DNA of 64,000 bases from Candidatus Liptonbacteria bacterium (lineage in GTDB: Bacteria; Patescibacteriota; Minisyncoccia; UBA6257; 2-01-FULL-56-20). The notes beneath the pieces were generated by a model, which did not search any database, had not been told where the DNA came from, and saw only the letters and a list, made by a program, of their open reading frames with translations. This document shows positions 50,160-64,000 of this stretch, piece by piece (position 1 is the first letter of the stretch; each line of letters starts with the position of its first letter). A program made the position numbers and the translations under genes. Location of the stretch: the NCBI GenBank assembly GCA_016194445.1, contig JACQBP010000035.1, forward strand, positions 4,396 through 68,395, given 5' to 3'.

Positions 50160-50429
50160 TCCCCGGTAGCTCAGTGGTAGAGCGGATCCCTGTCGGATAG
50201 GCAGCCTACAAGAGTAATCTTGTTTGAAAATTTCGGGATAACGGTGAACCCTTCGATACGCTTTGGCATATAAAGGTAACACCGTGGGAACCTCGCAATT
50301 TGCGGGGGCACCGTAGAGACTAGATACCGAAACATCCCAGTTGGGATGATGATATAGTCCGCGCCCTTTGGAAACTTTGGGATAAGTGTAAGGATAAGGT
50401 CGTAGGTTCGAATCCTACCCGGGGAGCCA
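50160..50429 (+). tRNA. tRNA gene interrupted by a group I intron; most likely tRNA-Asn(GUU)
   Basis: 5' exon (50160..50193) is TCCCCGGTAGCTCAGTGGTAGAGCGGATCCCTGT. 3' exon (50389..50426, plus CCA) is TAAGGATAAGGTCGTAGGTTCGAATCCTACCCGGGGAG+CCA. Joining them gives the anticodon loop CUGUUAA. U1:A72 and G73 match bacterial tRNA-Asn. Confidence 0.75.
50194..50388 (+). ncRNA. group I self-splicing intron (about 195 nt, small IC3-like) in the tRNA anticodon loop
   Basis: Conserved core elements are present: P-like AATTTGCGGG, R-like GTAGAGACTAGA and S-like GATATAGTCC. The 5' exon ends in U and the intron ends in G. A possible P1 pairs exon CUGU with intron GCAG. Confidence 0.7.
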
Positions 50430-52016
50430 GATGGGATGAGTGTCGCGAAAAGCGGCACTTTTCTCTTTATTGGTGGGCTTTTTCGCAGGTTCGAAAGTGC
50501 TTTTTTCGGTGTTTTTCTCGGAAAGCTCTTGTTGAACTCGATCATGTATGAGTTTAAAGGCTTTTTGGTAAGAAACCTCGACATTCTTGCCGTTTATCTT
50601 GGGGTTCGAAAATAGAAATGACAGCAGGGTTCGTTTTTGCTCAACCGTTCGCCGGGGTTTTAGATAAGTGTCGCGGGCCTCTTTTGCTATTTGAAGCACG
50701 GCCACACCCATCTCAAAATATTTGAGATTCGCGTTGCGATGGCGGTTTAAGCTGTCCAGCGTTTCTTCTTGCTCTTTTTTGTATTGCTGGAGTTTTTTGT
50801 CATAAAAATCGTGGCTGATTCGGCCGTCGATTTTATCGTCATAAAGTTTATCTATTCTCTGGGTGGCCGTCTGATATCTTCGTTCAAGTTCGGCCGATGA
50901 TTTTTCACGGAAGGCGATCTCGCCGGCATGGCTTTCTTTGAGTGCCTCTTGGACCCACGAGAGCATCCGTTCAATGCGTTTATCTTCGTGGCTTACTTCA
51001 ACCACCGATTTGGCCACTTGAGTATTGATATCTTCTTGCTTTACCCAATCATAATTCGGGCAGTTTTTGTAATGATTGCAGTGGCCGTACCAATGGCCTT
51101 TTTGTATTTCCCAAGTAATCGTTCCTCCGCATTCACTGCATCGGAATACGCTTTTAAACAGCGAATTGTGCTTTCGCATCCTCGGAGCTCCGTAACTGTG
51201 CAATCTATCCTGCACTTTTTGAAAAAGTTCTTTACTGATAAGCGGTTCGTGGTGACCCGGGGTGATCTGATTTTTCCATCGGTTCATGCCGTAGTAGAAC
51301 GGATCACCGAGAAGCTGATGGATTCGGGCATGGCTTACTTTGTGACTGGTACGCGAGCGCAGGCCTTTTTCATACATCGCATTGCAGAGTGTCTTGGTTG
51401 AGTATTGGCCGGATGCATATAATTCAAACATCTTTTTAATGAGTGGTGATTTTTCCTCGTCAATCACATGAACTTTATGTCCCTTCTCGCCGTCGGTTTT
51501 ATATCCGAGCGGAGGCTTTGTCGGCAACCATCCCTGCGCCAGTTTTTCTTTTTGCCCCTTTTTTACATTTTCAGAGAGCAGTCGGATATAGTATTCGGCT
51601 GTTGCCACTTTTACTCGCCACATAAACCACTCGTGCGATTTTGATTCTTTGTGCAGGGTGCATCCTTCTTTGACCAGATGAATTTTATGATTATCATCGG
51701 CCAGTATCCAATTATCAATAACCGGTACATCGGCGAAGTTTCTGGTGAGCCGGTCGGTGGTCTCTACGATGATGGTGTTGATTTTGTTTTTTACCACATG
51801 CGCCATCATCTCGCCGAAGATTTTTCGCTGGATTTTGCCGGCGGCCGACTCTTGGATGGCAAAAACTTTCGTGAGCTCGAAGTTATTGCGTTCGGCATAG
51901 TCGCGAAGGAATTTTTCTTGGGCCGGTAGTGAATAGCCGGTATCCTCTTGATCTTTTGAGGACACGCGGGCGTATCCCACGGTCTTTGGCATTTCGTTAT
52001 TGTTTATCATTGTCAT
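50415..52016 (-). CDS. large serine recombinase (integrase)
   Basis: N-terminal resolvase catalytic domain with VGYARVSSKDQ; recombinase domain; zinc ribbon CSECGG...HCNHY. The 3' end overlaps the tRNA 3' end by 15 nt. Confidence 0.85.
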   Translation of the reverse strand: MTMINNNEMPKTVGYARVSSKDQEDTGYSLPAQEKFLRDYAERNNFELTKVFAIQESAAGKIQRKIFGEMMAHVVKNKINTIIVETTDRLTRNFADVPVIDNWILADDNHKIHLVKEGCTLHKESKSHEWFMWRVKVATAEYYIRLLSENVKKGQKEKLAQGWLPTKPPLGYKTDGEKGHKVHVIDEEKSPLIKKMFELYASGQYSTKTLCNAMYEKGLRSRTSHKVSHARIHQLLGDPFYYGMNRWKNQITPGHHEPLISKELFQKVQDRLHSYGAPRMRKHNSLFKSVFRCSECGGTITWEIQKGHWYGHCNHYKNCPNYDWVKQEDINTQVAKSVVEVSHEDKRIERMLSWVQEALKESHAGEIAFREKSSAELERRYQTATQRIDKLYDDKIDGRISHDFYDKKLQQYKKEQEETLDSLNRHRNANLKYFEMGVAVLQIAKEARDTYLKPRRTVEQKRTLLSFLFSNPKINGKNVEVSYQKAFKLIHDRVQQELSEKNTEKSTFEPAKKPTNKEKSAAFRDTHPIWLPG

Positions 52017-52109
52017 TTTTGGTTAATTTTTTGGTTCGAAATCGACCTTTGGTCTCAAGACAACCCCTATGCCAATTCTCGATATCCATCAAGCTGATTT
52101 GCCCACAGC

Positions 52110-52646
52110 TCAAACACCGGTGTCTATCCAGTCAAAAAGTCGGTTTTCCGCATCTTCTGGATATTCTTTTCGAGCCAGCTTGAGCCGTACTTCGTAAGGG
52201 ACGAGATACCACCTTTCCATTGATGTCATTTTTGAGAGCGCTTCTTTGCTTAAATTCATTTCTTCTTTGGGCCTGCCTTCGACGCGATCCAGAAGCTCTT
52301 TTATGGCGCCGAGCTTCACATTGTCTTGCTGGCTTCCCATTAAAGCTACGAGCATTTCGTTGGCAAGCCGGAAGTTCTTCTCGCGAATTTGAACGCCGGC
52401 CTTGAGAAGCATCTGCATCGTTTCCCCGTGGATTGTATCCATTTCTTTCTCGTAAAGCTTGTATGTCTCGCAGAGCGTTCCCGTGTCTTTAAACCAATCT
52501 TTTGCTGTTTGCTCGGAAAACTTGCCTTTTCTACTTTTTTCAAACTGGGAATTCAAAGTTTCGGCAATGTCTTGGTAGGAATTGCCTTTATATTTCAGCT
52601 CTAACGCTTTCTTGTGGTATTCGGCTAAATGTTTGAGTTTCGGCAT
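52110..52646 (-). CDS. hypothetical HTH protein (element-encoded)
   Basis: GNSYQDIAETLN helix-turn-helix-like segment. Confidence 0.35.
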   Translation of the reverse strand: MPKLKHLAEYHKKALELKYKGNSYQDIAETLNSQFEKSRKGKFSEQTAKDWFKDTGTLCETYKLYEKEMDTIHGETMQMLLKAGVQIREKNFRLANEMLVALMGSQQDNVKLGAIKELLDRVEGRPKEEMNLSKEALSKMTSMERWYLVPYEVRLKLARKEYPEDAENRLFDWIDTGV

Positions 52647-52657
52647 GAAAAGTTGTG

Positions 52658-52855
52658 TTAAGTAGAGTGTTTGGCTGATTCATGGCGAATAGGTTGGACC
52701 GGCTTCCCCAGCACATACTCAATAATAATTATTGCCGCTTGAAGCCGTATTGATTCGTCTTTGCTTTCCAAAAGCGAAACCAGCACTTTTGTCGCTTTCA
52801 CTACATTTTTTCGTAGTATTTCTATCGCGATTTCTTCTGGCTTTTTATTTTTCAT
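52658..52855 (-). CDS. small hypothetical protein
   Basis: 65 aa, overlaps the next gene by 4 nt. Confidence 0.25.
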   Translation of the reverse strand: MKNKKPEEIAIEILRKNVVKATKVLVSLLESKDESIRLQAAIIIIEYVLGKPVQPIRHESAKHST

Positions 52856-53346
52856 GGTTTTGGCGTCATTGATTTTATTAATGTCTCGCGACCTCTTGCG
52901 AGCGCATCCAATGATTCCTGGTCTTTTTCTTGGGCGTATTGACGGCGGTATTTTAGATCATCGAGCGCGCGTTTCTTTTGGCAAAATTCTTCGTATGCCT
53001 TAAGGCCTGGGCCTACCGCCCAGCTCCAGCCCGGGTGTTCTGGCTTAACCCAGCGACGAGATATCGCTTTATTTCGAAGCAGATATTGGACGATACCGGC
53101 ATCGGTTAGGCCGGTAACATCGTTGCGAACTCGACGCGTGTCTTGGCTTTCGGGGAATTCTCGCTTGCCGATCTTAAAGGCGTTTATAACCGGCACCGTC
53201 TCTCCGTAGAAGCTCATTGGTCTTTCCAGCGGTTCTTTTTTCAGTTGCTCAAGCTCGGCCTCAAATTCTCGAATAGCTTTTCGATCTTCTTCGATATCCA
53301 AGTCGTACCCGACTTTTATTGGTTTTTGTTCTTCATTTAATTTCAT
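52852..53346 (-). CDS. hypothetical protein
   Basis: Charged helical protein; no recognisable motif. Confidence 0.35.
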   Translation of the reverse strand: MKLNEEQKPIKVGYDLDIEEDRKAIREFEAELEQLKKEPLERPMSFYGETVPVINAFKIGKREFPESQDTRRVRNDVTGLTDAGIVQYLLRNKAISRRWVKPEHPGWSWAVGPGLKAYEEFCQKKRALDDLKYRRQYAQEKDQESLDALARGRETLIKSMTPKP

Positions 53347-53349
53347 GGC

Positions 53350-54117
53350 TTAGACAATAAATTTAAGAAGTGTCTCAAGGCTATATTTCTTGAGCCATCC
53401 TTCTTTGACCGCTTCTTGCATCCGCTTATAGCCTTGCTTCAACCGCTCGTCCTCAAACGGCATAAGGTTTTTAGCGGCTCGCAGATTTCTTCGGATAAAA
53501 GTTTCCCATTGCCTTTTAGTGGTGAAATCAGGCTCCTCGGTATCCGCCCAAATTCCGATAATCTGAATATGGCGTTGCGGACTTTGATTGCACCACTCAA
53601 CGAATTCTTTTAAATCCATAGGCATATCCGCATTCACCGAAGGTGTTGCAATATCTTCTTTATTAATTTTCTTTATTGATTCTTCTTTGTTGCCATCCAT
53701 TGGCTTTTCTAAAATCACCGGATGACTTTTCATAACGCACCCAGTGCCTTTTCTATGAGAAAAATCATCTGGTGACTTTTCTTTTTTGGCATAGTATTTG
53801 GCGTTCAGTTGCCATAAATCGACGATCTTGTACTCAATGGTCGGCTTAGTTTTGCCGGCAACGCCGACTTTTTCTATCCAACCTCTTTGCACTAAAGTTT
53901 TCTGATACTTTCTGACGGTACCCGGAGCGATATCGAGTTTCTTTGCGATATTAATCGGCGACTCCCAGCAGGTGCCGGTCTCGCCGGCAACGCGCTTCAT
54001 GTAAAGATAAATTGCCTGCTCGTAGACGGTTGAATGGTTCACGATATAGTTCGGAATGATCGTGAAATATTTGCGGTCACCGCTTTTATCTATGATTTTG
54101 AAGGGATCACTTTTCAT
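53350..54117 (-). CDS. winged-helix DNA-binding protein (replication or regulatory function, element-encoded)
   Basis: wHTH-like segment PGTVRKYQKTLVQRGWIEK. Confidence 0.35.
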   Translation of the reverse strand: MKSDPFKIIDKSGDRKYFTIIPNYIVNHSTVYEQAIYLYMKRVAGETGTCWESPINIAKKLDIAPGTVRKYQKTLVQRGWIEKVGVAGKTKPTIEYKIVDLWQLNAKYYAKKEKSPDDFSHRKGTGCVMKSHPVILEKPMDGNKEESIKKINKEDIATPSVNADMPMDLKEFVEWCNQSPQRHIQIIGIWADTEEPDFTTKRQWETFIRRNLRAAKNLMPFEDERLKQGYKRMQEAVKEGWLKKYSLETLLKFIV

Positions 54118-54288
54118 GGCTTTGTTGTTCGGCGATTAAATCCTCGCAGTAGCACTGCATCAGCGTGTCGTAAAAGCCCACGAGACAAAATGCGATGTCG
54201 TGCAAATCCTGATCATTGACCTCTTCGCCAAAATCTTCTTTGAGAATGACGCGGAGCTTCTCCAGCGTTTCTGGTTTTAAGTTCACGG

Positions 54289-54549
54289 CTATTCGTGGGC
54301 ATAAATCCTGACTTTGGCGAGTTTAAGCTGGTTGAAAAATGCTTGCGGCTCGACCTTGAGTTCGCGCTTCCAATACTTGGCGACAAGCTCATCCAGCTCG
54401 TCGCTTTTCTTGAACGCGAATAGGACTTTATGCGGGTTTGTCCGATCGCAGACCTCGAGCGAATCGGGAATAAATAATAAAAGCACCGCCACCAACGCTA
54501 AATCGGCGGATTTATAAACTTCGGTTTGTTCAGTTGTTTTCATCGTCAT
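54289..54549 (-). CDS. small hypothetical protein
   Basis: 86-aa ORF. Confidence 0.3.
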   Translation of the reverse strand: MTMKTTEQTEVYKSADLALVAVLLLFIPDSLEVCDRTNPHKVLFAFKKSDELDELVAKYWKRELKVEPQAFFNQLKLAKVRIYAHE

Positions 54550-54651
54550 TATTCGCTAAACCGATGTTCCGTTTCGGGGCCTCACCCAAAACAAAACACA
54601 CTCCCATGTTAAGGGAGTGCATTCATTCAATTTTCAGTTATGAATTGATTT

Positions 54652-55353
54652 TTAGGGCTTAAAATACCATCCTTCCTGCTTTTGATTGAAAATTACATCT
54701 TTTTTGAAATGAAGTTTTAATAGGTTGTGGAGCTCGCTTACATACTTTGCGATTGTAATTCTGGGCGTGGATTTTCTTCTGTCCGCATTGATAATCGCGT
54801 CTTGTATGTCATCTCTTGTGAGCATCCGATTCGGGTGATCCATAAAAAGTCGGCATAAATCTTTTATCTGACTTCGCATTTCAATCATTTCGCCTTGATA
54901 TCGGATCGTTCCATCGGAATAGCCGGCAAGGCCTTTTATTTCAATCTCTGGCTTCAAATCTTGAACATACAGCAAGTCCTTTTTGTGCCGGCGCGTAGGA
55001 GCTGTACTGAAGATTTCCTCATCAGATTTCTTGGGTGGCGCAACCAGATCCATCAATTTTTGCCGTTCCTTATACAAAAGCATCTTTATCGGTCTAATCA
55101 AATAAAAACAATCTTGATCCTCTTCAAAATTGCCAATAATTTTCTTCTTTTTGAGGTCTTTAAGCCACCGTCTCTGTTCGTCCCAAGAGTGGAGCGGAAA
55201 AGGGTTGAGCCAGACCTTTTTTCGTTTAGAGTAAAATTCGGGATCATCCTCGCCGGCCACTTCAACTCTTTTGATAACCTCGTTGATAAAATCAATTTTT
55301 CTTTGGGCCTCCCGCCTGATTTTTACTACATCATCATTAATAGTCATTGTCAT
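54652..55353 (-). CDS. hypothetical protein
   Basis: 233 aa; the C-terminal part may be winged-helix-like. Confidence 0.35.
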   Translation of the reverse strand: MTMTINDDVVKIRREAQRKIDFINEVIKRVEVAGEDDPEFYSKRKKVWLNPFPLHSWDEQRRWLKDLKKKKIIGNFEEDQDCFYLIRPIKMLLYKERQKLMDLVAPPKKSDEEIFSTAPTRRHKKDLLYVQDLKPEIEIKGLAGYSDGTIRYQGEMIEMRSQIKDLCRLFMDHPNRMLTRDDIQDAIINADRRKSTPRITIAKYVSELHNLLKLHFKKDVIFNQKQEGWYFKP

Positions 55354-55440
55354 AGTGTTAAATCCATTGTGTCAGATTTTGCCACTTTTGAAAATAAATA
55401 CGAGCGGACGGTAACAGTTTCAATGAGCTAAAGCGACGGA

Positions 55441-56070
55441 TTGTCGGAAAAAGAAATAAGTGATATGGTAAAAAATATTTCCATAGCTTCTATGCCCAAA
55501 CCACAACTTACCTACAATCCCAATTATTATGACGGAACAAACCTCATGCAGCTGAGACCGCGCGAGGTTGCTTTCAAAACATATAAAATGCGCGACGGTA
55601 CTCTGATAGGCTTATTTCAGGGAAGTCGTGGAGTGCGACCAGACATTGATTTCGTTATAAAAATTCTTATTCCCGGATCCGATAAAAAATTAAGACCACC
55701 AACTCACACCTTTTGGGTTGTGGATCTATTACTTAAAATCCCGCAATACAAGAACGAGGTGAAAGAAATTGTGCAATATTATATAGATTATTACGAACGG
55801 ACGGTTCCTTTTGCTTCTGTTCAGGAAAGAAATAATTACCAGCTTGAAACCGTTGAGGAAATTACAACTCGTTATGCGCAACTGGAGCAACCATATACAC
55901 TTTCACTCGATTATGTCGCGACGGTCATTGAACTTTTTTGTAAGAACGAGAAAATCAACCCCGGCGCATATATGTTCCGAAATCTCTTGCTCGTGTTGAG
56001 AGATTATATTGACGGCAATAAGCACTATACAGAAGTGCTTCAGGCCGCAATGCCTGGCTACAGAAATTAG
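55441..56070 (+). CDS. hypothetical protein
   Basis: 209 aa; no recognisable motif. Confidence 0.35.
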   Translation: MSEKEISDMVKNISIASMPKPQLTYNPNYYDGTNLMQLRPREVAFKTYKMRDGTLIGLFQGSRGVRPDIDFVIKILIPGSDKKLRPPTHTFWVVDLLLKIPQYKNEVKEIVQYYIDYYERTVPFASVQERNNYQLETVEEITTRYAQLEQPYTLSLDYVATVIELFCKNEKINPGAYMFRNLLLVLRDYIDGNKHYTEVLQAAMPGYRN

Positions 56071-56711
56071 CTTGCTGTCTCAAAAATCTTTTTTACTAGC
56101 CCTGTGCGAGCATAGAATGCCCGAGTAATAGGGCGACGCTTTCCAGTTCGCGGATTAATACCACCAATGCCTTTTGTGCGAGCCTGTATCCACTTGCCGT
56201 CTTTCCCGGTTAAGGCATCAAAACCCTTCTTAATCAGTTTGTCGCGGATAAAATCGTAGTCGGCCTTGATTTCTTTTATCAATTCACCGTCCTCGGCGAA
56301 ATCCAAGCTTGCCACGCTCAGCAACTCCGCTTTCTTGGAATTCATGCCATTCCATTTTACGGCACAAAAAATAATAGTTTTAAATTTTGCCCAAACATGA
56401 CTTTCAAAAAACGAATGATCCTTTAATTCTTCGGGGTGGACCATTGTTATCGCCATCGTTTCTTTTGGTACGAGTTTATTGTTCACATAATGAAAGGCGA
56501 CGGATTTGAGTTCGTAAGTAAGCCCATTCGGTGCTTTTGAGACATTTGTTTGTAGCCCCGCCAACCGTTCTAAGACAAGACCCTTCCAGCCTTTATTTTG
56601 CTTTCCATTCTTAAACGAATTGATACCGAATTGCAAAGCAAGATCGGCAAGGTCTCTACCAATATATTTCTTCAGATTTTTTATCGCAGTTGCCCGAGTT
56701 ACAATTTTCAT
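56067..56711 (-). CDS. MutH/Sau3AI-family GATC endonuclease (restriction subunit)
   Basis: Similar to MutH. NKGWKGLVLERLAG aligns with MutH DKGWIGVLLEIWLG, TYELKSVAF with GVELKTIPV, and the C-terminal ITRAFYARTGLVKKIF with RGFYLKKNF. Translationally coupled (ATGA) to the upstream methyltransferase. Confidence 0.75.
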   Translation of the reverse strand: MKIVTRATAIKNLKKYIGRDLADLALQFGINSFKNGKQNKGWKGLVLERLAGLQTNVSKAPNGLTYELKSVAFHYVNNKLVPKETMAITMVHPEELKDHSFFESHVWAKFKTIIFCAVKWNGMNSKKAELLSVASLDFAEDGELIKEIKADYDFIRDKLIKKGFDALTGKDGKWIQARTKGIGGINPRTGKRRPITRAFYARTGLVKKIFETAS

Positions 56712-58177
56712 GCCTCTTTGATAAGTTTATTGTTTAAATTGCGATCCAATTCCTCGAATCGTTTAATAGATAGCTCTAAAAATTTTGATTCGGTATCAAT
56801 ACCTATAAATTTTCTTCCATGAAGATAGGCCGCAATGCCGGTAGTGGAACTTCCTGTAAATGGGTCAATGACCAGATCACCTTTATTCGTGCTTGCGAGT
56901 ACTATTCTTTTTAACAAATCTTCTGGTTTTTGTGTAGGGTGTTTTCCAAACTTTTTTTCTATCGGCTTGGGAGTGCCCATTGACCAAACCGAGCGCATTT
57001 GGAGCCCTGGCTTTTTTAAATTATCCTCCGTCCAATGGCCGTTTTTCATCAGATCATAATTGAATGTGTGTTTCGCCTTTCTTTCTTTTCTTGCCCAAAT
57101 TAAAGTTTCGTGACTTGCGGTAAAGTATCGGCAACTAAGATTCGGTGACGCGTTTGGTTTAAACCATGCGATGTCGTTTAAGATATGATATCCGAGTGCC
57201 TGTAGAGCATGGCCGCACTGGTAAATTGAGTGATAGGTACCGCTAACCCAGAGAGTACCGTGCGGCTTCAAAACTCTTCGACACGCCTCCATCCATTTGT
57301 AATGAAAATCATAGTCATCTTTAAACCCCTTACTCTTGTCCCAATCTCCCTTATTCACGCTAACCATTCGTCCGGCGTGAACCGTAAAGCCGCCGTTGGA
57401 AAGGTTGTAGGGTGGATCGGCAAAAATCATATCCACAGAATTTTCTGGAAGTCGTGCTATCACATCTAAGCAATTTGCTTGAAAGAGTTTGAATTTTGGT
57501 TTTTCGTAATAGGGCTTTAGTGCTACTGTACCTTGGTCTGTTTTTTCGATAACAATTTCGGGGATATTTACACTTGCTTCTTGAATCACATCCAGCACTA
57601 TCCCTTGGATCGAGACATCTCGTCCGTTTCTAAATATAAGCGGCTCCATGCTTTTGTTTGCTGGTTGTAAGCGAATATGTCCGCGTTCTCTATAAAATTT
57701 CTTTAGCGTTGCTTCGTGGTTATCGATGAGGGCGACTACCTTTTGTCCGTTATCGGCAACAGCTTGTTGCTTTACCAATACAACATCGCCATTATTGATT
57801 CCTTCATCGATCATACTATCGCCGAGCACGCGCAGGGCATAGAATTCACCGCTTCGTGGTAGCTTGTTTTGAGGGATCGCAATAGTTTCCTTTTCTTGTA
57901 TTGCCTCTATCGGCTGGCCCGCGGCTATGGTGCCCAAAAGAGGAATTTTTACCAGTTTAGCGGTTTTTTCTATTAAACTAATGCCACGCGCTGAATTATC
58001 GTTTTTTGCAACGAATCCTTTATCTGCCAAAACTCCGATATGCTGGTGGATCGTTGAAAGAGAGGAGAGTCGGAAGTGTTTTTTGATTTCTTCCAAAGTC
58101 GGTGAAAAGCCCTTCTTGTTGATATAAGACTCGGTGTAGTCGTAGATTTGTTTTTGTCGCTTGGTTAGTGTGGCCAT
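56708..58177 (-). CDS. LexA-like repressor (wHTH plus S24 peptidase) fused to a DpnA-like GATC N6-adenine DNA methyltransferase
   Basis: The N-terminal 200 aa align with E. coli LexA, including the AAG cleavage site and GDSM/K catalytic residues (LTKRQKQIYDY, GTIAAGQP, LRVLGDSMIDEGINNGDVVLV, TLKKF). The C-terminal 285 aa align with M.DpnIIB/DpnA: DMIFADPPYNLSNGG, VSVNKGDWDK, NLSCRYFTASHETLIWARK, GKHPTQKPEDLLKRIVLAST and VIDPFTGSSTTG. Confidence 0.8.
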   Translation of the reverse strand: MATLTKRQKQIYDYTESYINKKGFSPTLEEIKKHFRLSSLSTIHQHIGVLADKGFVAKNDNSARGISLIEKTAKLVKIPLLGTIAAGQPIEAIQEKETIAIPQNKLPRSGEFYALRVLGDSMIDEGINNGDVVLVKQQAVADNGQKVVALIDNHEATLKKFYRERGHIRLQPANKSMEPLIFRNGRDVSIQGIVLDVIQEASVNIPEIVIEKTDQGTVALKPYYEKPKFKLFQANCLDVIARLPENSVDMIFADPPYNLSNGGFTVHAGRMVSVNKGDWDKSKGFKDDYDFHYKWMEACRRVLKPHGTLWVSGTYHSIYQCGHALQALGYHILNDIAWFKPNASPNLSCRYFTASHETLIWARKERKAKHTFNYDLMKNGHWTEDNLKKPGLQMRSVWSMGTPKPIEKKFGKHPTQKPEDLLKRIVLASTNKGDLVIDPFTGSSTTGIAAYLHGRKFIGIDTESKFLELSIKRFEELDRNLNNKLIKEA

Positions 58178-58276
58178 AAACGATTGACTCGGTGTATTTA
58201 TTTTCTTACACTATCAGTATACCGAAGATTTGCCGAAGATGTAATAGCCCACTTATCCACATGCAGAGAAATAGCA

Positions 58277-58294
58277 AACAAGTCGACAAACTTG
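58277..58294. promoter_or_regulatory. ACAAGT-N6-ACTTGT palindrome (with central GTCGAC) in the divergent promoter region; candidate operator
   Basis: Only strong palindrome in the 170-bp region between the LexA-methyltransferase start and the 1205-aa gene start. Confidence 0.35.
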
Positions 58295-58347
58295 TCTATA
58301 AACTCTACGGCCTCACTTCGGAGGAGTTAAGATTGTAGAACAAAACC

Positions 58348-61300
58348 ATGCCGGAAAACGATAAAGAAATACCAGTTCCATATGAGAAGCCACTAATTTT
58401 AAGCGAGAAGCAAAAATGGCTTTGCTCACATTTGGATGCACTCAACGGCATTGAAAATTTTTGTCCAAACGCAATCCCATCCGATCTTTTTGTAGGCGCA
58501 CTGTCTTTGGTTAAATCAAAAAACAGAAAGACAAACCCTGATTGGATGGCACAGGCAGCTCATTCTTTGCGAGAAATATTATATGGAGTGGGGCAGGTCA
58601 GACGACCCAAAAATAAACTTATCCTGGCTTGGCAAGTTTTCTTGGGAAAAGGTGAAAATTCTCTGACTCGAAGAGCGAGGATTGAAAATTTATTGAAAGT
58701 ATACCAAGAGGAACAGCGGGCTTCAGAATTAGCTCATGTTTTAAATGATTTACATTTTATATTTACCAATATCGCTCATCATTTGCAGGATAGTCAAAAA
58801 CATAAGTATGTAAAAAAGAAACTAATAAAAATAGGGATTTCAAATCCAGAACCTTCCTTGATAGTAACTGAAGCTGTATTTGAACAATTGATGGATACTC
58901 TGGAAAATGCTTGGGCACAATCTATTCCTCGACAACTTACCATTCATGAACAAATCGATTCTCTGTTAAGCCGCGATCCAAAATTAGTCAGCAAAGGAGT
59001 TTTGAATGTTCTTTTATCTTTTAACCCCGACGCGCGGTACTACTTTTATACCAAAGCCGATGAGCGTTGGCTTGGTTGGCTTTGGGGAAATGGTTTTCTG
59101 GATGTTATCAAACAAAAAGCAGAAGATCCTACGCGCTATGGCTATAGAACACCAGAAGTTAATTACCTCGTAAAAGTTTCTGAAAAAGAGCCGGCAAAGG
59201 TGGTTGATATTATGCTGGCCGTACCGATTTCTACGGAGAACTTTAATCCAGAAGTGGTGGACAGGTTCTTACGCATTTGTAGTGGCTTGCCAGCACCAGA
59301 ACTCAAACGGATGGTAAAGAAAATTCGTGATGATGGATTGGTGCGACTTATGGGTGCATTCAACGATTGGGGTTTTGAGTATGAAAAAATGCTTAAAACT
59401 TTAACTGATGTCAATGACTTTGATAGCGTTCTTGTTCTTGCAGAGGCAGTACTTTCCATTCGTACAAAAAAAGAAGCCGAACAAACTTCGCGCGGCTTTT
59501 TGTCCGACAATCCTTTCTACTTCAAAGAACTAAGCTATACAAAAGTATTCGAATACTTACTCAAGGTGGATGAGAAAAACATTGAAAATGCACTCACCTT
59601 GGTAACCAGCACGATGAAAGAGGTTGTACTCTTTGGAGAAAAAGAAGGCAAGGATGAAGTGTTTAAGGTTTATGATAGCTACTTTTTATTAGATGTAGAT
59701 TTTTTTGAGCTTGAACTTACCGAAAAAGACAGGCTTTCGCACAGAGACGATGTTAAAAATCTCGCAGCTGTTATTAAGCATTATGCAGAGCAAACCATCG
59801 GGAAGAAATGTGACGATGTCGAATCGGCAGTTAAGCTGTATAACCAGTATTTTAATCATCTCCCGGATAGCCGCTCTATGTGGCGTCTCCGATTATTTGT
59901 ATTGAGTTTGTGCCCCGGCGCATTTAAAGAAGAGCTTAAAAAGGCATTCTTCCGATTGTTTGAGATTGAGCGTTACTATAACGAGATTATTTCTGGCACA
60001 GAATATTTGAAGGCGCTCCGTATTGGATTTCCTGTTTTATCTGATGATGATAAGCGTAAATATGTAAAACAGGTTATAGATTACTTTGTAAAAAAAGACC
60101 AAGAAAAAGAGAACGAAAAAGAAAATTGGCATATAGGGTATGGCTCGAGAATTATTTCAGTAATAGCCGATCAGCTTACTGAAGAAGAAAAACAAACAGC
60201 CAAAGACGCTGGATTTACGCTCGATCCTAACTATAAGCCAGAGCCATCCATAAAGATGGGTGGTTTTGCTGGTAGCATAAGACCAAGGGGACCGATAATC
60301 CAAGAAGAATTTGGAAATCTCTCGATAACTGATATTGCAGGGAAATTAAGAGTTGAATGGACGCCAGAAGAGTTGAGAAAAGAAAATACAAACGAGGATT
60401 TTCATAATCCCTTAAATGCAGAGGGTGTCGGCGAAATGTTGCGAATTGATATAACTAAGCGTCTACAAGATTATATAAATAACGCAAACATCTTTTTTGA
60501 ACGAGATAAATTAGACCAGCACTATACTTATTCTTTTCTGCGAGGCATACAAGAGGTTCTTCGAGGCAATAAAACCGAGGTCAGTGGTATAAATTGGGAT
60601 AATTTGATAGCTCTTTGCGTCACGATAAAGAAATCTGGCGAGACAAAACCCTTCGATAGCGGAAATCGCGAGCGCGATACTTTTGATGCGTGGCTTTCTG
60701 GCTGGACAGGCGTTCATTCTGCTATGACAGATGTTGTCCAAGAACTACTGACCGAAGAAAGGGGTGCTAAAATCGACTTTCCTAAATATCGCGATGACCT
60801 GTTTGGGGTCATAGGATATCTCCTTTCTTATCCCGATCCAGTTCCCGCCGACGAAGAGCCGAAAACAGCAAAAATGACTACAACGCCTCCTGGCGCAAAA
60901 GAACAAATGGTAAGCGATCCTTATTCGATGGCAATCAACACGGTACGGGGTAGAGCATTTCAAGCTTTTGCGTTGTTTATGTATCAAGACGGGAAGAAGT
61001 TCTCTAAAAACGAAAAAATAAAGATTTCCCTCGATGTTAAGGGACTGTACGAGGCTGTTCTCAAAAAAGAAAATACCCGGGCCCTTATGTTTATGTTCGG
61101 GCATTATCTGCCGTCGTTCTACTTTCGAGATAAAGAGTGGATGCAGAGCCTTTTCTCGCAGATTTTTTCTGCAGAGCCAACAAAGAAAAATCTCTATACG
61201 GCCGCATGGGAGGGCTATGTTTCAGCAAATCTTTATGATGAGATATTCTTCAACCCAGATACTCAGAAGTTATACGAACGGGGTCTTGCTCTGACAGATT

Positions 61301-61965
61301 CGGACTATCCACAACAAAAGCATTTCAAAGAACCGGACGAAGGCGTTGCTGTTCATGTTGCGCTTGCCTTCATGCACTTCTCGAAATTTGATTTTGACCA
61401 CGATCTATTCAAAAAATTCTGGAGTATGCCAAACCCGGAATATCACAAAGAATTTATCTCCTTTATCGGTCGCCACTCTATTTCACGAAAATCGGCTGCG
61501 GAATGGATAAAATACAATAAAGTCGATATTGAGAAACTTAAAAAGTTCTGGGATTGGGCGCTTAAAAATTGCAACATAGATGCGCTTACCGGCTTTGGTT
61601 TCTGGATTAATATGGAGCGTAGCCCATTGGATACAAAATGGCTCGCAAGTCACGCACGCCAAACGCTTGAGAAAACAAAGGGATATGTTGAGTGGGAATA
61701 TGGATTAATGCGCTCACTTGCGGCATTTGCAAAAGAGGCGCCGGAAGACACGCTTGCCATTTTGCGCGCTCATCTCCTTGAAGAGGTTGCAAAACATGAG
61801 CCAGTGAGAACATGGCTTCACATGGATGCCGAAGTTTATGACACCTTCAAAGAACTCTATAAAAATGAAGCGACAAAAGAAGGGGTGCGCACGCTTGTTA
61901 ACGACCTCTTGCCTTATCGTAATGGGATGTTTTGGGGGTTGAAATCTATCTTGGAAGAAAAATGA
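58348..61965 (+). CDS. large (1205 aa) uncharacterised alpha-helical protein, element-encoded
   Basis: Long uninterrupted ORF with no P-loop or nuclease motif found. Its stop overlaps the start of the PrimPol-helicase (ATGA). Confidence 0.5.
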   Translation: MPENDKEIPVPYEKPLILSEKQKWLCSHLDALNGIENFCPNAIPSDLFVGALSLVKSKNRKTNPDWMAQAAHSLREILYGVGQVRRPKNKLILAWQVFLGKGENSLTRRARIENLLKVYQEEQRASELAHVLNDLHFIFTNIAHHLQDSQKHKYVKKKLIKIGISNPEPSLIVTEAVFEQLMDTLENAWAQSIPRQLTIHEQIDSLLSRDPKLVSKGVLNVLLSFNPDARYYFYTKADERWLGWLWGNGFLDVIKQKAEDPTRYGYRTPEVNYLVKVSEKEPAKVVDIMLAVPISTENFNPEVVDRFLRICSGLPAPELKRMVKKIRDDGLVRLMGAFNDWGFEYEKMLKTLTDVNDFDSVLVLAEAVLSIRTKKEAEQTSRGFLSDNPFYFKELSYTKVFEYLLKVDEKNIENALTLVTSTMKEVVLFGEKEGKDEVFKVYDSYFLLDVDFFELELTEKDRLSHRDDVKNLAAVIKHYAEQTIGKKCDDVESAVKLYNQYFNHLPDSRSMWRLRLFVLSLCPGAFKEELKKAFFRLFEIERYYNEIISGTEYLKALRIGFPVLSDDDKRKYVKQVIDYFVKKDQEKENEKENWHIGYGSRIISVIADQLTEEEKQTAKDAGFTLDPNYKPEPSIKMGGFAGSIRPRGPIIQEEFGNLSITDIAGKLRVEWTPEELRKENTNEDFHNPLNAEGVGEMLRIDITKRLQDYINNANIFFERDKLDQHYTYSFLRGIQEVLRGNKTEVSGINWDNLIALCVTIKKSGETKPFDSGNRERDTFDAWLSGWTGVHSAMTDVVQELLTEERGAKIDFPKYRDDLFGVIGYLLSYPDPVPADEEPKTAKMTTTPPGAKEQMVSDPYSMAINTVRGRAFQAFALFMYQDGKKFSKNEKIKISLDVKGLYEAVLKKENTRALMFMFGHYLPSFYFRDKEWMQSLFSQIFSAEPTKKNLYTAAWEGYVSANLYDEIFFNPDTQKLYERGLALTDSDYPQQKHFKEPDEGVAVHVALAFMHFSKFDFDHDLFKKFWSMPNPEYHKEFISFIGRHSISRKSAAEWIKYNKVDIEKLKKFWDWALKNCNIDALTGFGFWINMERSPLDTKWLASHARQTLEKTKGYVEWEYGLMRSLAAFAKEAPEDTLAILRAHLLEEVAKHEPVRTWLHMDAEVYDTFKELYKNEATKEGVRTLVNDLLPYRNGMFWGLKSILEEK

Positions 61966-64000
61966 TCAATATAACCGAGCAACAACTTGAGTTATTTATG
62001 TCCTTATTTCGCGGCCGCGAAGATGTTTATGCGCGTCGCTGGGAAAAAGGTGATAAGTCAGGCTATAGCCCGGCGTACGATTTTAATTGGGACGAGTTCA
62101 TGTCGCATAAACGCCGAGGCGGATCAATGAAGGATTTCGATAATAAAACATTGCTTCCTCTTGCTAGAGAAGTGGTTAAAAAGCATCTTTTGGGACAGCT
62201 TGTTGTCGGAATTTATCCAATACTTACCGAAAATACTTCGTATTTTATTACGGCTGACTTCGATGGGGAAACTTGGAATAATGATGCAAAAGCGTTTCTT
62301 CGTATTTGCAAGGAAGAGTGTATCAATGCCTATCTGGAGCGCTCTCGATCAGGTAATGGCGGACATGTTTGGATATTCTTTTCTGAACCGTACCCATGCT
62401 ATAAAAGCCGGCAAATTGTTCTTGAATTAATACGCCGCGCATTTCATATCTCCGAATTTGAGAAAGAAGTTAGTTTTGACCGCTTATTTCCAAACCAAGA
62501 TACTCTTACGAAAAATGGGTTCGGTAATTTGATAGCTTTACCATTACAGGGAAGATCATTCGAACACGGAAATGCGTTATTTGTTGATGCTGCCACGAAC
62601 AAACCCTTCTCGGATCAATGGGCCTTTTTACAAAATGCGAAGCGCCACACACCTCAGGAATTAGAAACAATGCATAGCAAGCTTTTTAATACCGCAGATA
62701 AACCAATTCAATCTTTACCAAAAGACAATAGCTTCCAAATTACGGTCAGCAATCAAATAACATTGCCGCGCGCACAACTTACGCCAACGATTATTCATTT
62801 CCTTAAAAACGAACTTAATTTTTTAAATACCGAATATCTAACCAAGCGACGACTCGGTAAATCAACTTATAAGATACAAAAATATTTCAAATTAATTGAT
62901 GAGGCGGGAGATACCATTTCGTTACCGTGTGGTTTCTTAACCCAACTGAGTGCGTTTTTGGATCAAAATCATATTGCTTATGCTTTAACGGAAAACCATG
63001 CTCTTCTGGATGAAGCGACTTTTAATAACGACATTAAGCTAACACCCGCGCAGACAAAAGTTGTAGAACAAGCCACTGGCTATAATCAAGGAGTTATCGT
63101 GGCACCTTCTGGAAGTGGTAAAACGATAATGGGACTGGAACTAATCGCCCGGAGAAAACAGCCGGCCTTAATTCTTGTACACCGCAAACAAATTCTTGAT
63201 CAGTGGGTTGACCGCATACAAGCATTTTTGGGTATCGCAAAAACACATATCGGCCAGTATTCTGGTGTCAAGAAGAAAATCGGTAAGCAAATCAGCGTTG
63301 GCCTACTTCAAAGCTTTGCAAGAAAAGGTGATTTATCCGAGCTACAAAATTCTTTCGGCACAATAATTGTTGACGAATGCCATCACATCCCCGCATCAAC
63401 TTTTCGAGAGGTTATTGCCCAGTTGAATCCACAATATCTCTATGGGCTTACGGCTACGCCCAAACGCAAACATAACGACGAAAAGCTTATCTATGTTTAT
63501 ATTGGCGACATTGTTGCTCAAATGGCCGTATCTGATGTGCCTATTCACGAAACAAAAGTAAGTGTGTACACGCCAGAAGTTTTAATACGAACCACCAATT
63601 TAGAAATACCATTCAAATTTACCACCGACTACTTTCAATTACTGGCAAAAATCATTTCTTGCGATACTGGGCGTAATCGCTTAGTTGTCGATAACATACT
63701 TAGCGAGGTTGAGAAAAATAGAAAAATCCTTGTGTTGAGCGAACGAAAAGAACACCTCGAGATTTTAAACATGTATCTTAAAAGTAAATGCGAAACTATT
63801 GTTATTTCTGGAGATGATTCTGCTCGAGCGCGGAAATCAAAACTTGCACAAATTCAAAGCGGTCATTATCAGGTTATTCTTTCAACGGGGCAATTTTTTG
63901 GTGAAGGTATCGATATTCGAGGCACAACCTGTCTTGTACTGGCTTTTCCTTTCTCGTTCGAAGGCAAGCTCATCCAGTATATGGGGCGCCTACGCGATAT
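61962..64000 (+). CDS. PrimPol (archaeo-eukaryotic primase-polymerase domain) fused to an SF2 DEAH-box helicase; partial, runs off the window
   Basis: Manual translation: PrimPol motifs GIYP...YFITADFDGE and SRSGNGGHVWIFF; helicase motif I APSGSGKT, motif II IIVDECHH, motif III LYGLTATP. Confidence 0.65.
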   Translation, partial: MINITEQQLELFMSLFRGREDVYARRWEKGDKSGYSPAYDFNWDEFMSHKRRGGSMKDFDNKTLLPLAREVVKKHLLGQLVVGIYPILTENTSYFITADFDGETWNNDAKAFLRICKEECINAYLERSRSGNGGHVWIFFSEPYPCYKSRQIVLELIRRAFHISEFEKEVSFDRLFPNQDTLTKNGFGNLIALPLQGRSFEHGNALFVDAATNKPFSDQWAFLQNAKRHTPQELETMHSKLFNTADKPIQSLPKDNSFQITVSNQITLPRAQLTPTIIHFLKNELNFLNTEYLTKRRLGKSTYKIQKYFKLIDEAGDTISLPCGFLTQLSAFLDQNHIAYALTENHALLDEATFNNDIKLTPAQTKVVEQATGYNQGVIVAPSGSGKTIMGLELIARRKQPALILVHRKQILDQWVDRIQAFLGIAKTHIGQYSGVKKKIGKQISVGLLQSFARKGDLSELQNSFGTIIVDECHHIPASTFREVIAQLNPQYLYGLTATPKRKHNDEKLIYVYIGDIVAQMAVSDVPIHETKVSVYTPEVLIRTTNLEIPFKFTTDYFQLLAKIISCDTGRNRLVVDNILSEVEKNRKILVLSERKEHLEILNMYLKSKCETIVISGDDSARARKSKLAQIQSGHYQVILSTGQFFGEGIDIRGTTCLVLAFPFSFEGKLIQYMGRLRD

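What the first reader, a model, noticed from the sequence alone, without database searches (positions are those of the whole stretch)
61962..64000. PrimPol fused to an SF2 DEAH helicase (partial)
Manual translation shows AEP PrimPol motifs (ADFDGE, SGNGGHVWIFF) followed by SF2 helicase motifs I to III. This is the likely replicative primase-helicase of the element, although similar fusions are also reported in defence contexts. The gene is truncated at the window edge.
Basis: partly seen in the sequence, partly recalled or inferred. Interest (0 to 1): 0.5.

Follow-up and report, generated by a model that had tools for sequence, protein, structure and literature searches.

The report
Defence-island primase-polymerase fused to XPB-like helicase
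The gene really encodes a primase-polymerase fused to a helicase, but it belongs to a large, already catalogued and untested family that sits among anti-phage genes, so it is more likely an immune component than the replication enzyme of the mobile element.

Summary
Observation confirmed. An ORF starts at 61962 and overlaps the stop of the upstream gene (ATGA). It runs off the window, which lacks only the last 40 of 719 residues. It has an AEP primase-polymerase domain (Pfam PF22548 'AEP-TOTE', E=6e-83), an XPB/Rad25-like SF2 helicase, and all catalytic motifs.

The reading 'replicative primase-helicase of the element' is not supported.
- The family is large and patchy: at least 545 hits among GTDB species genomes and 16% of complete E. 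coli genomes.
- The fusion is absent from 50,697 deposited phage genomes.
- The helicase is SF2, not a ring-shaped replicative class.
- The island has its own replication-initiator-like gene.

Gene context points to defence. The gene is tightly coupled to variable neighbours: SoFic-type Fic, Schlafen-ATPase, AbiEii and HipA. In the window's own clade the layout is a variable restriction enzyme, a LexA-fused methyltransferase, a divergent conserved promoter, a non-homologous variable cassette, then this gene. Here the cassette is a 1205-aa HEAT-repeat protein, which elsewhere rides behind R-M genes.

The partners that define classical TOTE (TPR-OB, TBP) are absent.

Best reading: the conserved DNA-opening and priming core of a modular defence module. 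This rests on gene context only; confidence 0.55.

The parts
61962..64000 (+). AEP-TOTE primase-polymerase fused to an XPB-like SF2 helicase. The window holds aa 1-679 of 719. It is the last gene of the operon.
   Evidence: The full length comes from the identical contig L001:9965-12124.
61983..62669 (+). AEP (PrimPol) catalytic domain, aa 8-236: DxD at D99/D101, SGNGGH135, D173, GNLIALP.
   Evidence: Pfam PF22548, E=5.9e-83. These residues are invariant in 19 homologues. The closest solved relative is Marinitoga CAPP PrimPol 7nqd/7nqf, E=4e-16.
62679..63026 (+). Linker and helicase N-terminal accessory region (aa ~240-355). It has conserved KxELNFLNxEYL and KYFKLI motifs and may correspond to the N-terminal domain of XPB.
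   Evidence: Conservation in A1. The phrog_16 helicase profile already aligns from aa 283. Foldseek alignments to archaeal XPB span 430-495 columns. The domain identity is inferred.
63033..63467 (+). Helicase lobe 1 (ResIII/DEAD): motifs I (GSGKT), Ia, II (DECHH) and III (TATP).
63690..63989 (+). Helicase lobe 2 (Helicase_C): motifs IV-VI.
58348..61965 (+). 1205-aa all-alpha HEAT/ARM-type solenoid protein, translationally coupled to the AEP-helicase (ATGA overlap). It occupies the variable-cassette slot.
58178..58347 (.). Divergent intergenic control region. It holds a promoter-like TTGACT-17-TACACT (58184-58212, + strand), a minus-strand promoter-like site (58245-58216), the direct repeat CCGAAGAT x2 (58222-58229 and 58233-58240) and the conserved box TTATCCACAT.
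   Evidence: The first ~120 nt are conserved in five loci whose downstream cassettes differ. Repeats. Consensus scan. An operator function is inferred.
56708..58177 (-). LexA DNA-binding domain + S24 self-cleaving peptidase fused to an N4/N6 DNA methyltransferase. It is transcribed divergently from the operon.
   Evidence: Pfam. The AAG cleavage site, GDSM serine, TLKK lysine and DPPY motif are all present. The same fusion is found beside the AEP-helicase operon in L002, L248, L250 and L251.
56067..56711 (-). MutH/Sau3AI-like restriction endonuclease, the partner of the methyltransferase.
   Evidence: Pfam MutH, E=7e-9. It is replaced by AlwI, BglII or DUF6996/6997 genes in related loci.
50415..52016 (-). 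Large serine recombinase at the left end of the island that carries the module.
   Evidence: Pfam Resolvase + Recombinase. Serine recombinases are also present in L251 and L009.
53350..54117 (-). The island's own replication-initiator / DnaD-like HTH protein.
   Evidence: PHROG 270/8102/186/428, 'replication initiation protein / DnaD-like helicase loader', E down to 6e-9. Pfam HTH_36.

Best explanation
The ORF encodes a 719-aa enzyme with two active halves: a CAPP-like AEP primase-polymerase (Pfam AEP-TOTE) and an XPB/Rad25-like SF2 DNA translocase. It is the invariant last gene of a small operon. The upstream slot of that operon is filled by interchangeable, unrelated genes; here it holds a 1205-aa HEAT-repeat protein.

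The operon is transcribed divergently from a restriction-modification pair whose methyltransferase carries a complete LexA-type self-cleaving repressor. The whole set sits on a serine-recombinase island in a Candidatus Liptonbacteria (CPR) genome.

The most likely function is immunity against invading DNA, not replication of the island.

Proposed mechanism, all of it inferred:
1. The XPB-like motor binds and opens DNA, as XPB does.
2. The tethered AEP domain starts short primers or DNA on the exposed strand, as the related CAPP enzyme does in vitro (my recollection of the CAPP literature).
3. This aberrant priming, or the resulting hybrid, blocks invader replication or licenses the co-encoded partner. 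In other lineages that partner is a toxin such as Fic, AbiEii, HipA or a Schlafen-ATPase. Here it is a HEAT scaffold or sensor.
4. The LexA domain may hold the operon off until DNA damage or infection triggers its cleavage.

Shown here: domain identity, intact catalytic motifs, operon coupling, the modular cassette architecture and the defence-gene neighbourhood. Inferred: every biochemical step and the defence phenotype.
For: Domains and motifs:
- AEP-TOTE, E=6e-83.
- PADLOC PrimPol model, E=1e-74.
- All AEP and SF2 motifs are invariant in homologues of 62-100% identity.
- The helicase half is nearest to archaeal XPB (sequence E=2e-20; Foldseek E=5e-23).
- The AEP half is nearest to CAPP PrimPol.

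Operonic partners in 88 other loci (82 same-strand neighbours within 200 bp; 80 GTDB species genomes plus IMG/VR and contig look-up loci):
- Schlafen AlbA_2/HATPase_c_4: 12.
- Fic: 11, and 11 members match the PADLOC SoFic model (best E=3e-108).
- AbiEii: 5.
- HipA: 4.
- Many gaps are 0-10 bp.

Own clade (65-92% identity):
- Five distinct loci share the LexA-MTase, the divergent orientation and the AEP-helicase; a sixth, L009 at 65% identity, has a stand-alone LexA-like repressor divergent from a three-gene cassette. The restriction enzyme and the intervening cassette are non-homologous.
- The promoter region was aligned for the five LexA-MTase loci and its first ~120 nt are conserved.

Other context:
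- One distant variant carries a C-terminal PLD nuclease domain.
- The 1205-aa partner family is itself an R-M-linked accessory gene. It lies downstream of Mod-type MTases, HsdR, Type III Res, Type ISP and Type IIG enzymes.
- In E. coli a 35%-identical full-length homologue occurs in 876 of 5426 complete genomes.
- In the O157:H7 genome examined, that homologue sits after an int, YfjI and Gp2-type backbone.
- In K-12 CP4-57 the corresponding slot holds the anti-phage AbpAB and RnlAB (PMC10732053).
- NCBI PGAP names the E. coli protein 'TOTE conflict system AEP domain-containing protein'.

Against a replicative role:
- 0 of 50,697 phage genomes hold the fusion.
- The closest IMG/VR relatives are only 30-34% identical.
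- The island has its own initiator-like gene.
Against: - No member of this family has been tested for defence, as far as the held literature shows.
- Guilt by association in defence islands cannot distinguish a defence gene from an MGE maintenance gene. Both ride on the same islands.
- The protein is unusually well conserved (65-70% identity between CPR and Ignavibacteria/Bacteroidota). That is more typical of a housekeeping or repair enzyme than of an arms-race gene.
- The E. coli homologue follows YfjI (DUF3987) and an inovirus Gp2-type protein. That set could be an island replication module.
- LexA control would fit a repair role equally well.
- The 1205-aa partner has no detectable catalytic domain, and it pairs with the AEP-helicase only in the window and in L002.
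- DNA downstream of the gene is known for only 170 bp in this genome.
Confidence: 0.55

Rival explanations
1. Replicative primase-helicase of the integrated element. After excision by the serine recombinase, the enzyme would unwind and prime the island's DNA.
For: - The gene lies on an island with a large serine recombinase.
- AEP-helicase fusions are classic MGE replicases (general knowledge; PMC11724360 abstract).
- 98 plasmid records hold a full-length 33-35% homologue.
- E. coli homologues follow YfjI (DUF3987) and an inovirus Gp2-type gene near an integrase.
- Distant relatives lie on IMG/VR contigs beside tyrosine integrases.
Against: - The helicase is XPB-like SF2, not an SF3, SF4 or MCM ring helicase.
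- The island has a separate initiator/DnaD-like gene.
- 0 of 50,697 phage genomes carry the fusion.
- Only 10 of 80 species loci show a recombinase within the up-to-8-kb flanks.
- Solo copies lie among tRNA-synthetase or glycosidase genes.
- The tightly linked partners are toxins or defence genes, not origin-binding or partition genes.
- 901 of 908 E. coli copies are chromosomal.
Confidence: 0.15
2. An SOS-inducible DNA damage-tolerance or repair enzyme. The XPB-like motor opens damaged or stalled DNA and the PrimPol reprimes or fills gaps. One possible purpose is to heal breaks made by the neighbouring restriction enzyme.
For: - A complete LexA-type repressor, with its cleavage site and Ser/Lys dyad, is fused to the divergently transcribed methyltransferase. 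It recurs next to this operon.
- XPB, RadD and UvsW, the nearest structural relatives, are repair or fork-remodelling helicases.
- Sequence conservation is very high.
- Other MGE PrimPols show repair activities (PMC11724360 abstract).
Against: - The distribution is patchy and accessory: 16% of complete E. coli genomes and at least 545 hits among 185,579 GTDB species.
- Partner genes are abortive-infection toxins rather than repair factors.
- LexA linkage is seen only in the window's CPR clade.
- LexA-like repressors also gate prophages and defence genes (general knowledge).
Confidence: 0.15
3. An establishment or counter-defence factor of mobile DNA. It would prime and convert incoming single-stranded or nicked element DNA so that the DNA escapes host restriction.
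For: - The gene is present on conjugative and mobilizable plasmids: 99 of 319 matching records.
- In one locus it lies near T4SS/relaxase genes in Sinorhizobium.
- Plasmid-borne primases with this role are known (general knowledge).
Against: - Most plasmid hits are on non-mobilizable replicons: 220 of 319.
- CPR and Bacteroidota copies are chromosomal and lack transfer genes.
- Coupling to toxins and R-M genes suggests the host side of the conflict.
Confidence: 0.07

Closest known systems
Pfam PF22548 'AEP-TOTE': the AEP domain of TOTE (TPR, OB, TBP, Effector) conflict systems. Predicted computationally by Aravind, Iyer & Burroughs 2022 (pmid 35609893), as cited in PMC12458937.
   Same: - The AEP domain matches the family model end to end (aa 8-236 against model positions 2-229 of 230; 278 bits against a cut-off of 27).
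- The AEP + ResIII + Helicase_C architecture is identical in all top 120 homologues.
- NCBI names relatives with this term.
   Different: - No TPR-cold-shock/OB gene, no TBP gene and no RNase H gene is present in the window locus or in the related loci examined.
- The upstream partner is a HEAT-type solenoid with no beta domain.
- The original paper is not held in the library, so its exact definition could not be read.
CRISPR-associated Prim-Pol (CAPP) of Marinitoga piezophila, PDB 7nqd/7nqf
   Same: - It is the closest solved AEP domain (E=4e-16).
- It shares the N-terminal FxLFxGREDV motif, GxHxWIFF, FPxQ...GxGNLIxxPL and the C-terminal FVD...FL region.
- The PADLOC 'PrimPol, CAS-associated' model hits at E=1e-74.
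- From my own knowledge of the CAPP literature, it is an active primase-polymerase.
   Different: - No cas gene is present in the locus.
- The NCBIfam CAPP equivalog scores 97.5 against a cut-off of 200.
- The window protein is fused to an SF2 helicase. The PDB entries name the CAPP chain a 'TPR_REGION domain-containing protein'.
Archaeal XPB/Rad25 helicase with its Bax1 nuclease partner (PDB 6p4o, 6p4f, 2fwr)
   Same: - It is the best sequence and fold match for the helicase half.
- It pairs a DNA-opening SF2 motor with a separately encoded effector.
   Different: - The NCBIfam XPB equivalog scores 95 against a cut-off of 610.
- XPB has no AEP domain.
- No Bax1 homologue was seen in the locus.
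- The RED and thumb elements of XPB were not examined.
- The model is of moderate quality (pLDDT 71).
Hachiman/AbpAB (HamA effector + HamB SF2 helicase sensor)
   Same: - The operon logic is alike: a conserved helicase plus an upstream effector.
- AbpAB is activated by DNA damage or by a phage single-stranded DNA-binding protein (PMC10732053, PMC10925250).
- In E. coli, the syntenic island slot holds AbpAB in K-12 and the AEP-TOTE helicase in O157:H7.
   Different: - There is no sequence homology to AbpB/YfjK.
- There is no HamA/DUF1837 partner.
- Hachiman has no polymerase domain.
- This is an analogy of organisation only.
MGE replicative primase-helicases (pRN1 ORF904-type, P4 alpha/D5-like, pAgo-associated AgaPP + PriCT-DUF3987 helicase; PMC11724360)
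   Same: An AEP primase-polymerase physically or genetically coupled to a helicase on a mobile element.
   Different: - Those helicases are SF3/D5-type. Here the helicase is SF2 and XPB-like.
- No PriCT or DUF3987 domain is present in this protein.
- No sequence comparison with AgaPP or Thermus Ppol (PMC7693054) was run.

Membership tests
AEP superfamily, PrimPol clade (Pfam PF22548 AEP-TOTE) | Match to the family HMM above the curated threshold, over its full length | tested here: met
   278.4 bits against a cut-off of 27. Model positions 2-229 of 230 are matched.
AEP superfamily, PrimPol clade (Pfam PF22548 AEP-TOTE) | Catalytic motifs: DxD (motif I), sGxGxH (motif II) and a third acidic residue (motif III) | tested here: met
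   D99/D101, S130-H135 and D173 are present and invariant in 19 homologues. They align with the CAPP motifs.
SF2 helicases, XPB/Rad25-like | Helicase motifs I, Ia, II, III, IV, V and VI in two RecA-like lobes | tested here: met
   GSGKT, DECHH, TATP, SERKEH, STGQFFGEGID and QYxGRLR are invariant. Pfam gives ResIII + Helicase_C.
SF2 helicases, XPB/Rad25-like | Orthology to XPB (NCBIfam equivalog NF045503, cut-off 610 bits) | tested here: not met
   95 bits only. Archaeal XPB is still the best fold and sequence match, so the protein is XPB-like, not XPB.
TOTE conflict system (TPR, OB, TBP, Effector) | A TPR-OB (cold-shock domain) fusion protein encoded in the system | tested here: not met
   No TPR or CSD hit in any gene of the locus or in 82 operonic partners of relatives. 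The 1205-aa neighbour is an all-helical HEAT/ARM solenoid with no beta domain.
TOTE conflict system (TPR, OB, TBP, Effector) | A TBP-domain protein encoded in the system | tested here: not met
   None upstream. Downstream DNA is known for only 170 bp in this genome, but nothing is conserved downstream in relatives.
TOTE conflict system (TPR, OB, TBP, Effector) | An effector component, here the AEP-SF2 helicase | tested here: met
CRISPR-associated Prim-Pol (CAPP) | Genomic association with cas genes or a CRISPR array, and a match to the CAPP equivalog | tested here: not met
   No cas gene among the genes called in the locus. NF040561 scores 97.5 against a cut-off of 200. The window was not scanned for CRISPR repeats.
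MGE replicative primase-helicase | Helicase of a ring-forming replicative class (SF3/D5, SF4/DnaB, MCM), often with a PriCT domain | tested here: not met
   Only SF2 families match. PHROG gives the generic 'DNA helicase' phrog_16.
MGE replicative primase-helicase | Required for replication of the carrier element | not testable with these tools
   Needs genetics. The island does carry a separate initiator-like gene.
Known anti-phage defence systems (PADLOC-DB v2) | Match to a validated system's protein set | tested here: inconclusive
   Only the accessory 'PrimPol' models and generic helicase models (mREase_IV, PbeA) match. No complete known system is present. Partner genes in relatives match SoFic, PDC-S04 and AbiEii.

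The most novel reading that the evidence does not exclude
The AEP-XPB-like helicase would be the constant core of a widespread, untested immune system that swaps cassettes. Unrelated effectors or sensors plug in upstream of one conserved motor-primase: a HEAT solenoid, HEPN-like proteins, membrane proteins, SoFic, Schlafen-ATPase, AbiEii or HipA. In the CPR clade the operon would be gated by a LexA repressor fused to the methyltransferase of an adjacent R-M system. Immunity would work by template-dependent priming on invader DNA, a mode not yet demonstrated for any defence system.
Probability: 0.3. Interest if true: 0.7.

Novelty: new member of a known kind. Interest (0 to 1): 0.45.

Why it matters
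The gene is an ordinary member of a very large family that Pfam and NCBI already label as a conflict-system component. That label rests on comparative genomics alone.

If the defence reading is right:
- A primase-polymerase tethered to a DNA-opening motor would be a new kind of immune effector or sensor.
- The family would be one of the more common untested candidates. It is in about 16% of complete E. coli genomes, including O157:H7, so a direct test in a model host is feasible.

For this window, the practical point is annotation. The gene should be recorded as defence-island cargo, not as the element's replicase. The island's LexA-methyltransferase fusion and the R-M-linked HEAT protein are uncharacterised and deserve separate notes.

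Tried and rejected
1. TOTE definition. The paper by Aravind et al. 2022 is not held under its DOI or PMID. Four text searches found only one citing preprint. The definition therefore rests on PMC12458937.

2. The 1205-aa protein as obligate partner: rejected. None of 80 species loci with the AEP-helicase has it. None of 80 metagenomic loci with the 1205-aa family has an AEP-helicase.

3. The 1205-aa protein as the 'TPR-OB' component: rejected. It is a HEAT/ARM fold with no beta domain and no Pfam TPR or CSD hit.

4. E. coli YfjK/AbpB as a homologue: rejected. I considered this because of the shared alpA, yfjI, yfjJ and helicase gene order. BLASTP gives E=0.32. Only the island slot is shared.

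5. Island att sites. Direct-repeat searches of the 14-kb island gave only short chance-like pairs. No tRNA lies near the island. The right-hand boundary is unknown because both available contigs end about 170 bp after the gene.

6. Intrinsic terminator after the gene: none found by the consensus scan.

7. Deep profile search with the 1205-aa family. It gave 2556 representatives at E<=1e-3 and 495 at E<=1e-30. No listed member had an informative extra domain.

8. AF2 model of the AEP-helicase. It reached only pLDDT 71. I used it for helicase fold assignment only, not for active-site geometry.


Full report
OBSERVATION

The frame from 61962 to 64000 (+) is open for 679 codons. Its ATG overlaps the TGA of the preceding 1205-aa ORF, 58348-61965, as ATGA.

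- ADFDGE at aa 98-103.
- SGNGGHVWIFF at aa 130-140.
- GSGKT at aa 384-388.
- DECHH at aa 471-475.
- TATP at aa 497-500.

Helicase motifs IV-VI are also inside the window.

Pfam gives PF22548 'TOTE conflict system, Archaeo-Eukaryotic Primase domain' over aa 8-236 (E=5.9e-83). It also gives ResIII over aa 358-502 (E=6e-29) and Helicase_C over aa 577-676. PADLOC's accessory 'PrimPol' model matches at E=1e-74.

An identical public contig (L001) supplies the missing end. The protein is 719 aa, and only 40 residues after motif VI lie beyond the window.

THE PROTEIN

In an alignment of 19 homologues at 62-100% identity, every AEP catalytic residue is invariant: D99, D101, H135, D173 and the GNLIALP loop. 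Every SF2 motif is invariant too.

By sequence, the helicase half is nearest to archaeal XPB/Rad25 (6p4f, E=2e-20). The AEP half is nearest to the Marinitoga CRISPR-associated Prim-Pol (7nqd/7nqf, E=4e-16).

An AF2 model (pLDDT 71) has archaeal XPB-Bax1 complexes as its best Foldseek matches (E=5e-23). TFIIH XPB, T4 UvsW and RadD follow.

The protein falls below the NCBIfam equivalog cut-offs for both XPB and CAPP. It is therefore XPB-like and CAPP-like, but a member of neither orthologous group.

THE FAMILY

The family is very large and strikingly conserved.
- All 8000 candidates scored in the protein search had E<=1e-20. The top 120 all have the same architecture and are 705-745 aa long.
- Named sources in those rows are mostly CPR/Patescibacteria, with some Ignavibacteria. 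An identical copy of the upstream 1205-aa protein (P0121) is recorded by NCBI from a Candidatus Liptonbacteria MAG.
They come from CPR, Bacteroidota, Ignavibacteriota and other phyla.
- Bacteroidota forms carry about 280 extra C-terminal residues with no Pfam hit. One distant form ends in a PLD nuclease domain.

The fusion is essentially absent from viruses.
- None of 50,697 deposited phage genomes covers at least 80% of the protein. Only the helicase half matches.
- The best full-length IMG/VR matches are 30-34% identical.
- 98 plasmid records carry a full-length relative at 33-35% identity.
- 876 of 5426 complete E. coli genomes carry a full-length relative. 901 of the 908 copies are chromosomal. 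PGAP annotates them as 'TOTE conflict system archaeo-eukaryotic primase domain-containing protein'.
- The O157:H7 copy is 35% identical to the window protein over its full length.

GENE CONTEXT

I called ORFs in 96 loci and clustered the neighbours. No gene is universally linked. The gene directly upstream or downstream on the same strand, often 0-10 bp away, comes from a recurrent set. Among 82 such partners:
- 12 are Schlafen AlbA_2 + HATPase_c_4 proteins.
- 11 are Fic proteins.
- 5 are AbiEii.
- 4 are HipA.
- The rest include HTH regulators, UvrD, McrBC and a YhcG nuclease.

Against PADLOC, 11 members match the SoFic model (best E=3e-108), 11 match PDC-S04 and 5 match AbiEii. Six of the 80 species loci have Type I R-M genes nearby, and ten have a recombinase.

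None of these partners is a TPR, cold-shock/OB or TBP protein. TOTE is defined as TPR, OB, TBP, Effector, 'often with RNase H domains' (PMC12458937). The AEP domain is therefore a member of the Pfam family, but the window locus fails the system-level definition.

THE WINDOW'S OWN CLADE

The closest relatives (81-92% identity: L002, L248/249, L250, L251) show the same layout as the window. L009, at 65% identity, is similar. Left to right:
1. A variable restriction endonuclease: MutH/Sau3AI-like here and in L250, AlwI in L002, BglII in L251, DUF6996/6997 in L248.
2. A LexA_DNA_bind + Peptidase_S24 + DNA-methyltransferase fusion.
3. A divergent intergenic region.
4. A variable cassette.
5. The AEP-helicase.

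The cassettes share no detectable similarity:
- the 1205-aa protein (window and L002);
- 262 aa + 209 aa (L250);
- 379 + 277 + 187 aa (L251), two of which contain Rx4H motifs by eye;
- a methyltransferase fragment (L248/249).

The modules reassort. The window and L250 share the R-M pair (MTase 88% identical) but not the cassette. The window and L002 share the cassette and helicase (89% and 92%) but not the R-M enzymes.

The first ~120 nt of the intergenic region next to the LexA-MTase are conserved in all five loci. They contain:
- a TTGACT-17-TACACT promoter-like site facing the operon;
- a CCGAAGAT direct repeat;
- a TTATCCACAT box.

The LexA moiety keeps the Ala-Gly cleavage site and the Ser/Lys dyad. 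It is plausibly a damage-responsive switch for one or both transcription units. This is inferred.

THE 1205-aa PARTNER

It has no hit in Pfam, PADLOC, NCBIfam, PHROGs or PDB sequences.
- AF2 (pLDDT 82) predicts an all-helical solenoid.
- A profile search finds 2556 cluster representatives at E<=1e-3.
- In 80 metagenomic loci it is never next to an AEP-helicase.
- In most of those loci it is split into a ~190-aa ORF, which matches residues 1-210 of the window protein, plus a ~1010-aa ORF.

It lies just downstream of R-M genes:
- N6_N4 (Mod-type) methyltransferases, in 20 loci;
- HsdR;
- Type III Res;
- Type ISP;
- Eco57I/MmeI-like enzymes.

It is therefore another 'rider' on restriction systems. 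That is the same genomic niche where, from general knowledge, Fic, AbiEii and Schlafen-ATPase genes are commonly found.

THE ISLAND

After a class II ribonucleotide reductase gene (47705-50011) the window has, in order:
- a large serine recombinase (50415-52016, minus strand);
- small ORFs;
- a replication-initiator/DnaD-like HTH protein (53350-54117, minus strand);
- the R-M pair;
- the operon.

The element thus has its own candidate initiator.

E. COLI COMPARISON

In O157:H7 the homologue follows integrase, HTH, YfjI and a Gp2-type protein. In K-12 CP4-57 the backbone is related: YfjI is 40% identical. There the corresponding slot holds abpB/abpA, a Hachiman-type system activated by phage SSB or by DNA damage (PMC10732053), followed by rnlAB.

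YfjK/AbpB itself is not homologous to the AEP-helicase. This places the family in a slot used for defence cargo. The YfjI and Gp2-type neighbours also leave room for an island-replication reading.

INTERPRETATION

The best-supported view (0.55) is that this is the conserved motor-primase core of a modular anti-invader module. An XPB-like translocase opens DNA and the tethered PrimPol primes on it. The interchangeable upstream gene acts as effector, adaptor or guard. In this clade, expression may be gated by the LexA-fused methyltransferase.

Rivals:
- Island replicase (0.15). The SF2 helicase class, the absence from phages, the separate initiator and the toxin partners all argue against it.
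- SOS-inducible repair or repriming (0.15). LexA linkage, repair-type structural relatives and high conservation favour it. The patchy distribution and the toxin partners argue against it.
- An MGE establishment factor (0.07).

All functional statements are inferences from context. No member of the family has experimental data in the literature I could search.

NOVELTY

The gene is a new member of a catalogued but untested family. I did not find the arrangement seen here described anywhere: LexA-MTase, swappable cassette and AEP-helicase, with a HEAT partner and no TPR-OB/TBP. That is a modest extension, not a new kind of system.

Noticed in passing
window 56708-58177 (-); also L002:4537-6213, L248:1912-3390, L250:2875-4344, L251:3326-4930: A complete LexA-type repressor is fused to a DNA methyltransferase (N4/N6 type, or Dam type in L002). 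The repressor has its winged-helix domain, Ala-Gly cleavage site and Ser/Lys dyad. The fusion is paired with a different restriction endonuclease in each locus. This suggests R-M systems whose control protein is an SOS-cleavable repressor.
   Followed up: partly
window 58348-61965 (+); L167-L246: The 1205-aa HEAT/ARM solenoid belongs to an uncharacterised family (2556 representatives at E<=1e-3) with no Pfam model. It occurs fused (~1200 aa) or split (~190 + ~1010 aa). It almost always lies just downstream of Type I, IIG, III or ISP restriction-modification genes.
   Followed up: partly
window 58178-58300: About 120 nt of intergenic DNA are conserved across five loci with different flanking cassettes. 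The stretch has back-to-back promoter-like hexamers, a CCGAAGAT direct repeat with 11-nt spacing, a CAGTATAC palindrome and a TTATCCACAT box. It is a candidate operator for the LexA-MTase.
   Followed up: partly
window 50415-56070: The island carrying the module starts with a large serine recombinase right after a class II RNR gene. It also contains a DnaD/replication-initiator-like ORF (53350-54117), a weak terminase-small-subunit-like ORF (52110-52646, PHROG E=6e-4) and a DUF5659 ORF. It could be a degraded phage or a satellite-like element. No att repeats were found.
   Followed up: partly
window ~44000-48000: GC skew in 2-kb windows changes sign: positive from 1 to ~46 kb, negative from 46 to 50 kb, and near zero afterwards. 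Cumulative skew peaks near 44-46 kb. The cause is unexplained. It may reflect a strand or replication boundary, or the junction with foreign DNA.
   Followed up: no
L254:10001-12361 (E. coli O157:H7) versus L255 (K-12 CP4-57): 16% of complete E. coli genomes carry a 35%-identical AEP-TOTE helicase. It sits after an int/YfjI/Gp2-type backbone, at the position where K-12 carries the AbpAB (Hachiman-type) and RnlAB defence genes. This is an experimentally tractable homologue.
   Followed up: partly
L052:7980-10976, L062:8001-10961, L028:7989-11375, L100:7665-10715: Bacteroidota versions of the protein have an extra C-terminal region of ~280-400 residues with no Pfam match. One IMG/VR variant (L100) ends in a PLD-like nuclease domain.
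   Followed up: no
L004/L005:6283-12139 (Candidatus Falkowbacteria): A diversity-generating-retroelement-like pair (RVT_1 reverse transcriptase + bAvd) lies 1-3 kb upstream of a 203-aa ORF, an AbiEii gene and the AEP-helicase, arranged as an operon.
   Followed up: no
L251:5119-7693: This locus has a three-gene cassette in the slot that the 1205-aa gene fills in the window. Two of its proteins contain Rx4H motifs (NRNLYAH, IRNKVIH) reminiscent of HEPN RNases. I read these by eye and did not test them with a profile.
   Followed up: no
L001:12160-12200 (about 40-80 bp after the stop codon; beyond the window end): A 10-bp-arm inverted repeat, AGTTAGTTGA...TCAACTAACT, follows the gene. The Logan contig (L001/L247), the only one retrieved for this genome, ends about 170 bp after the stop. 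That may mark the island boundary or strain heterogeneity.
   Followed up: no
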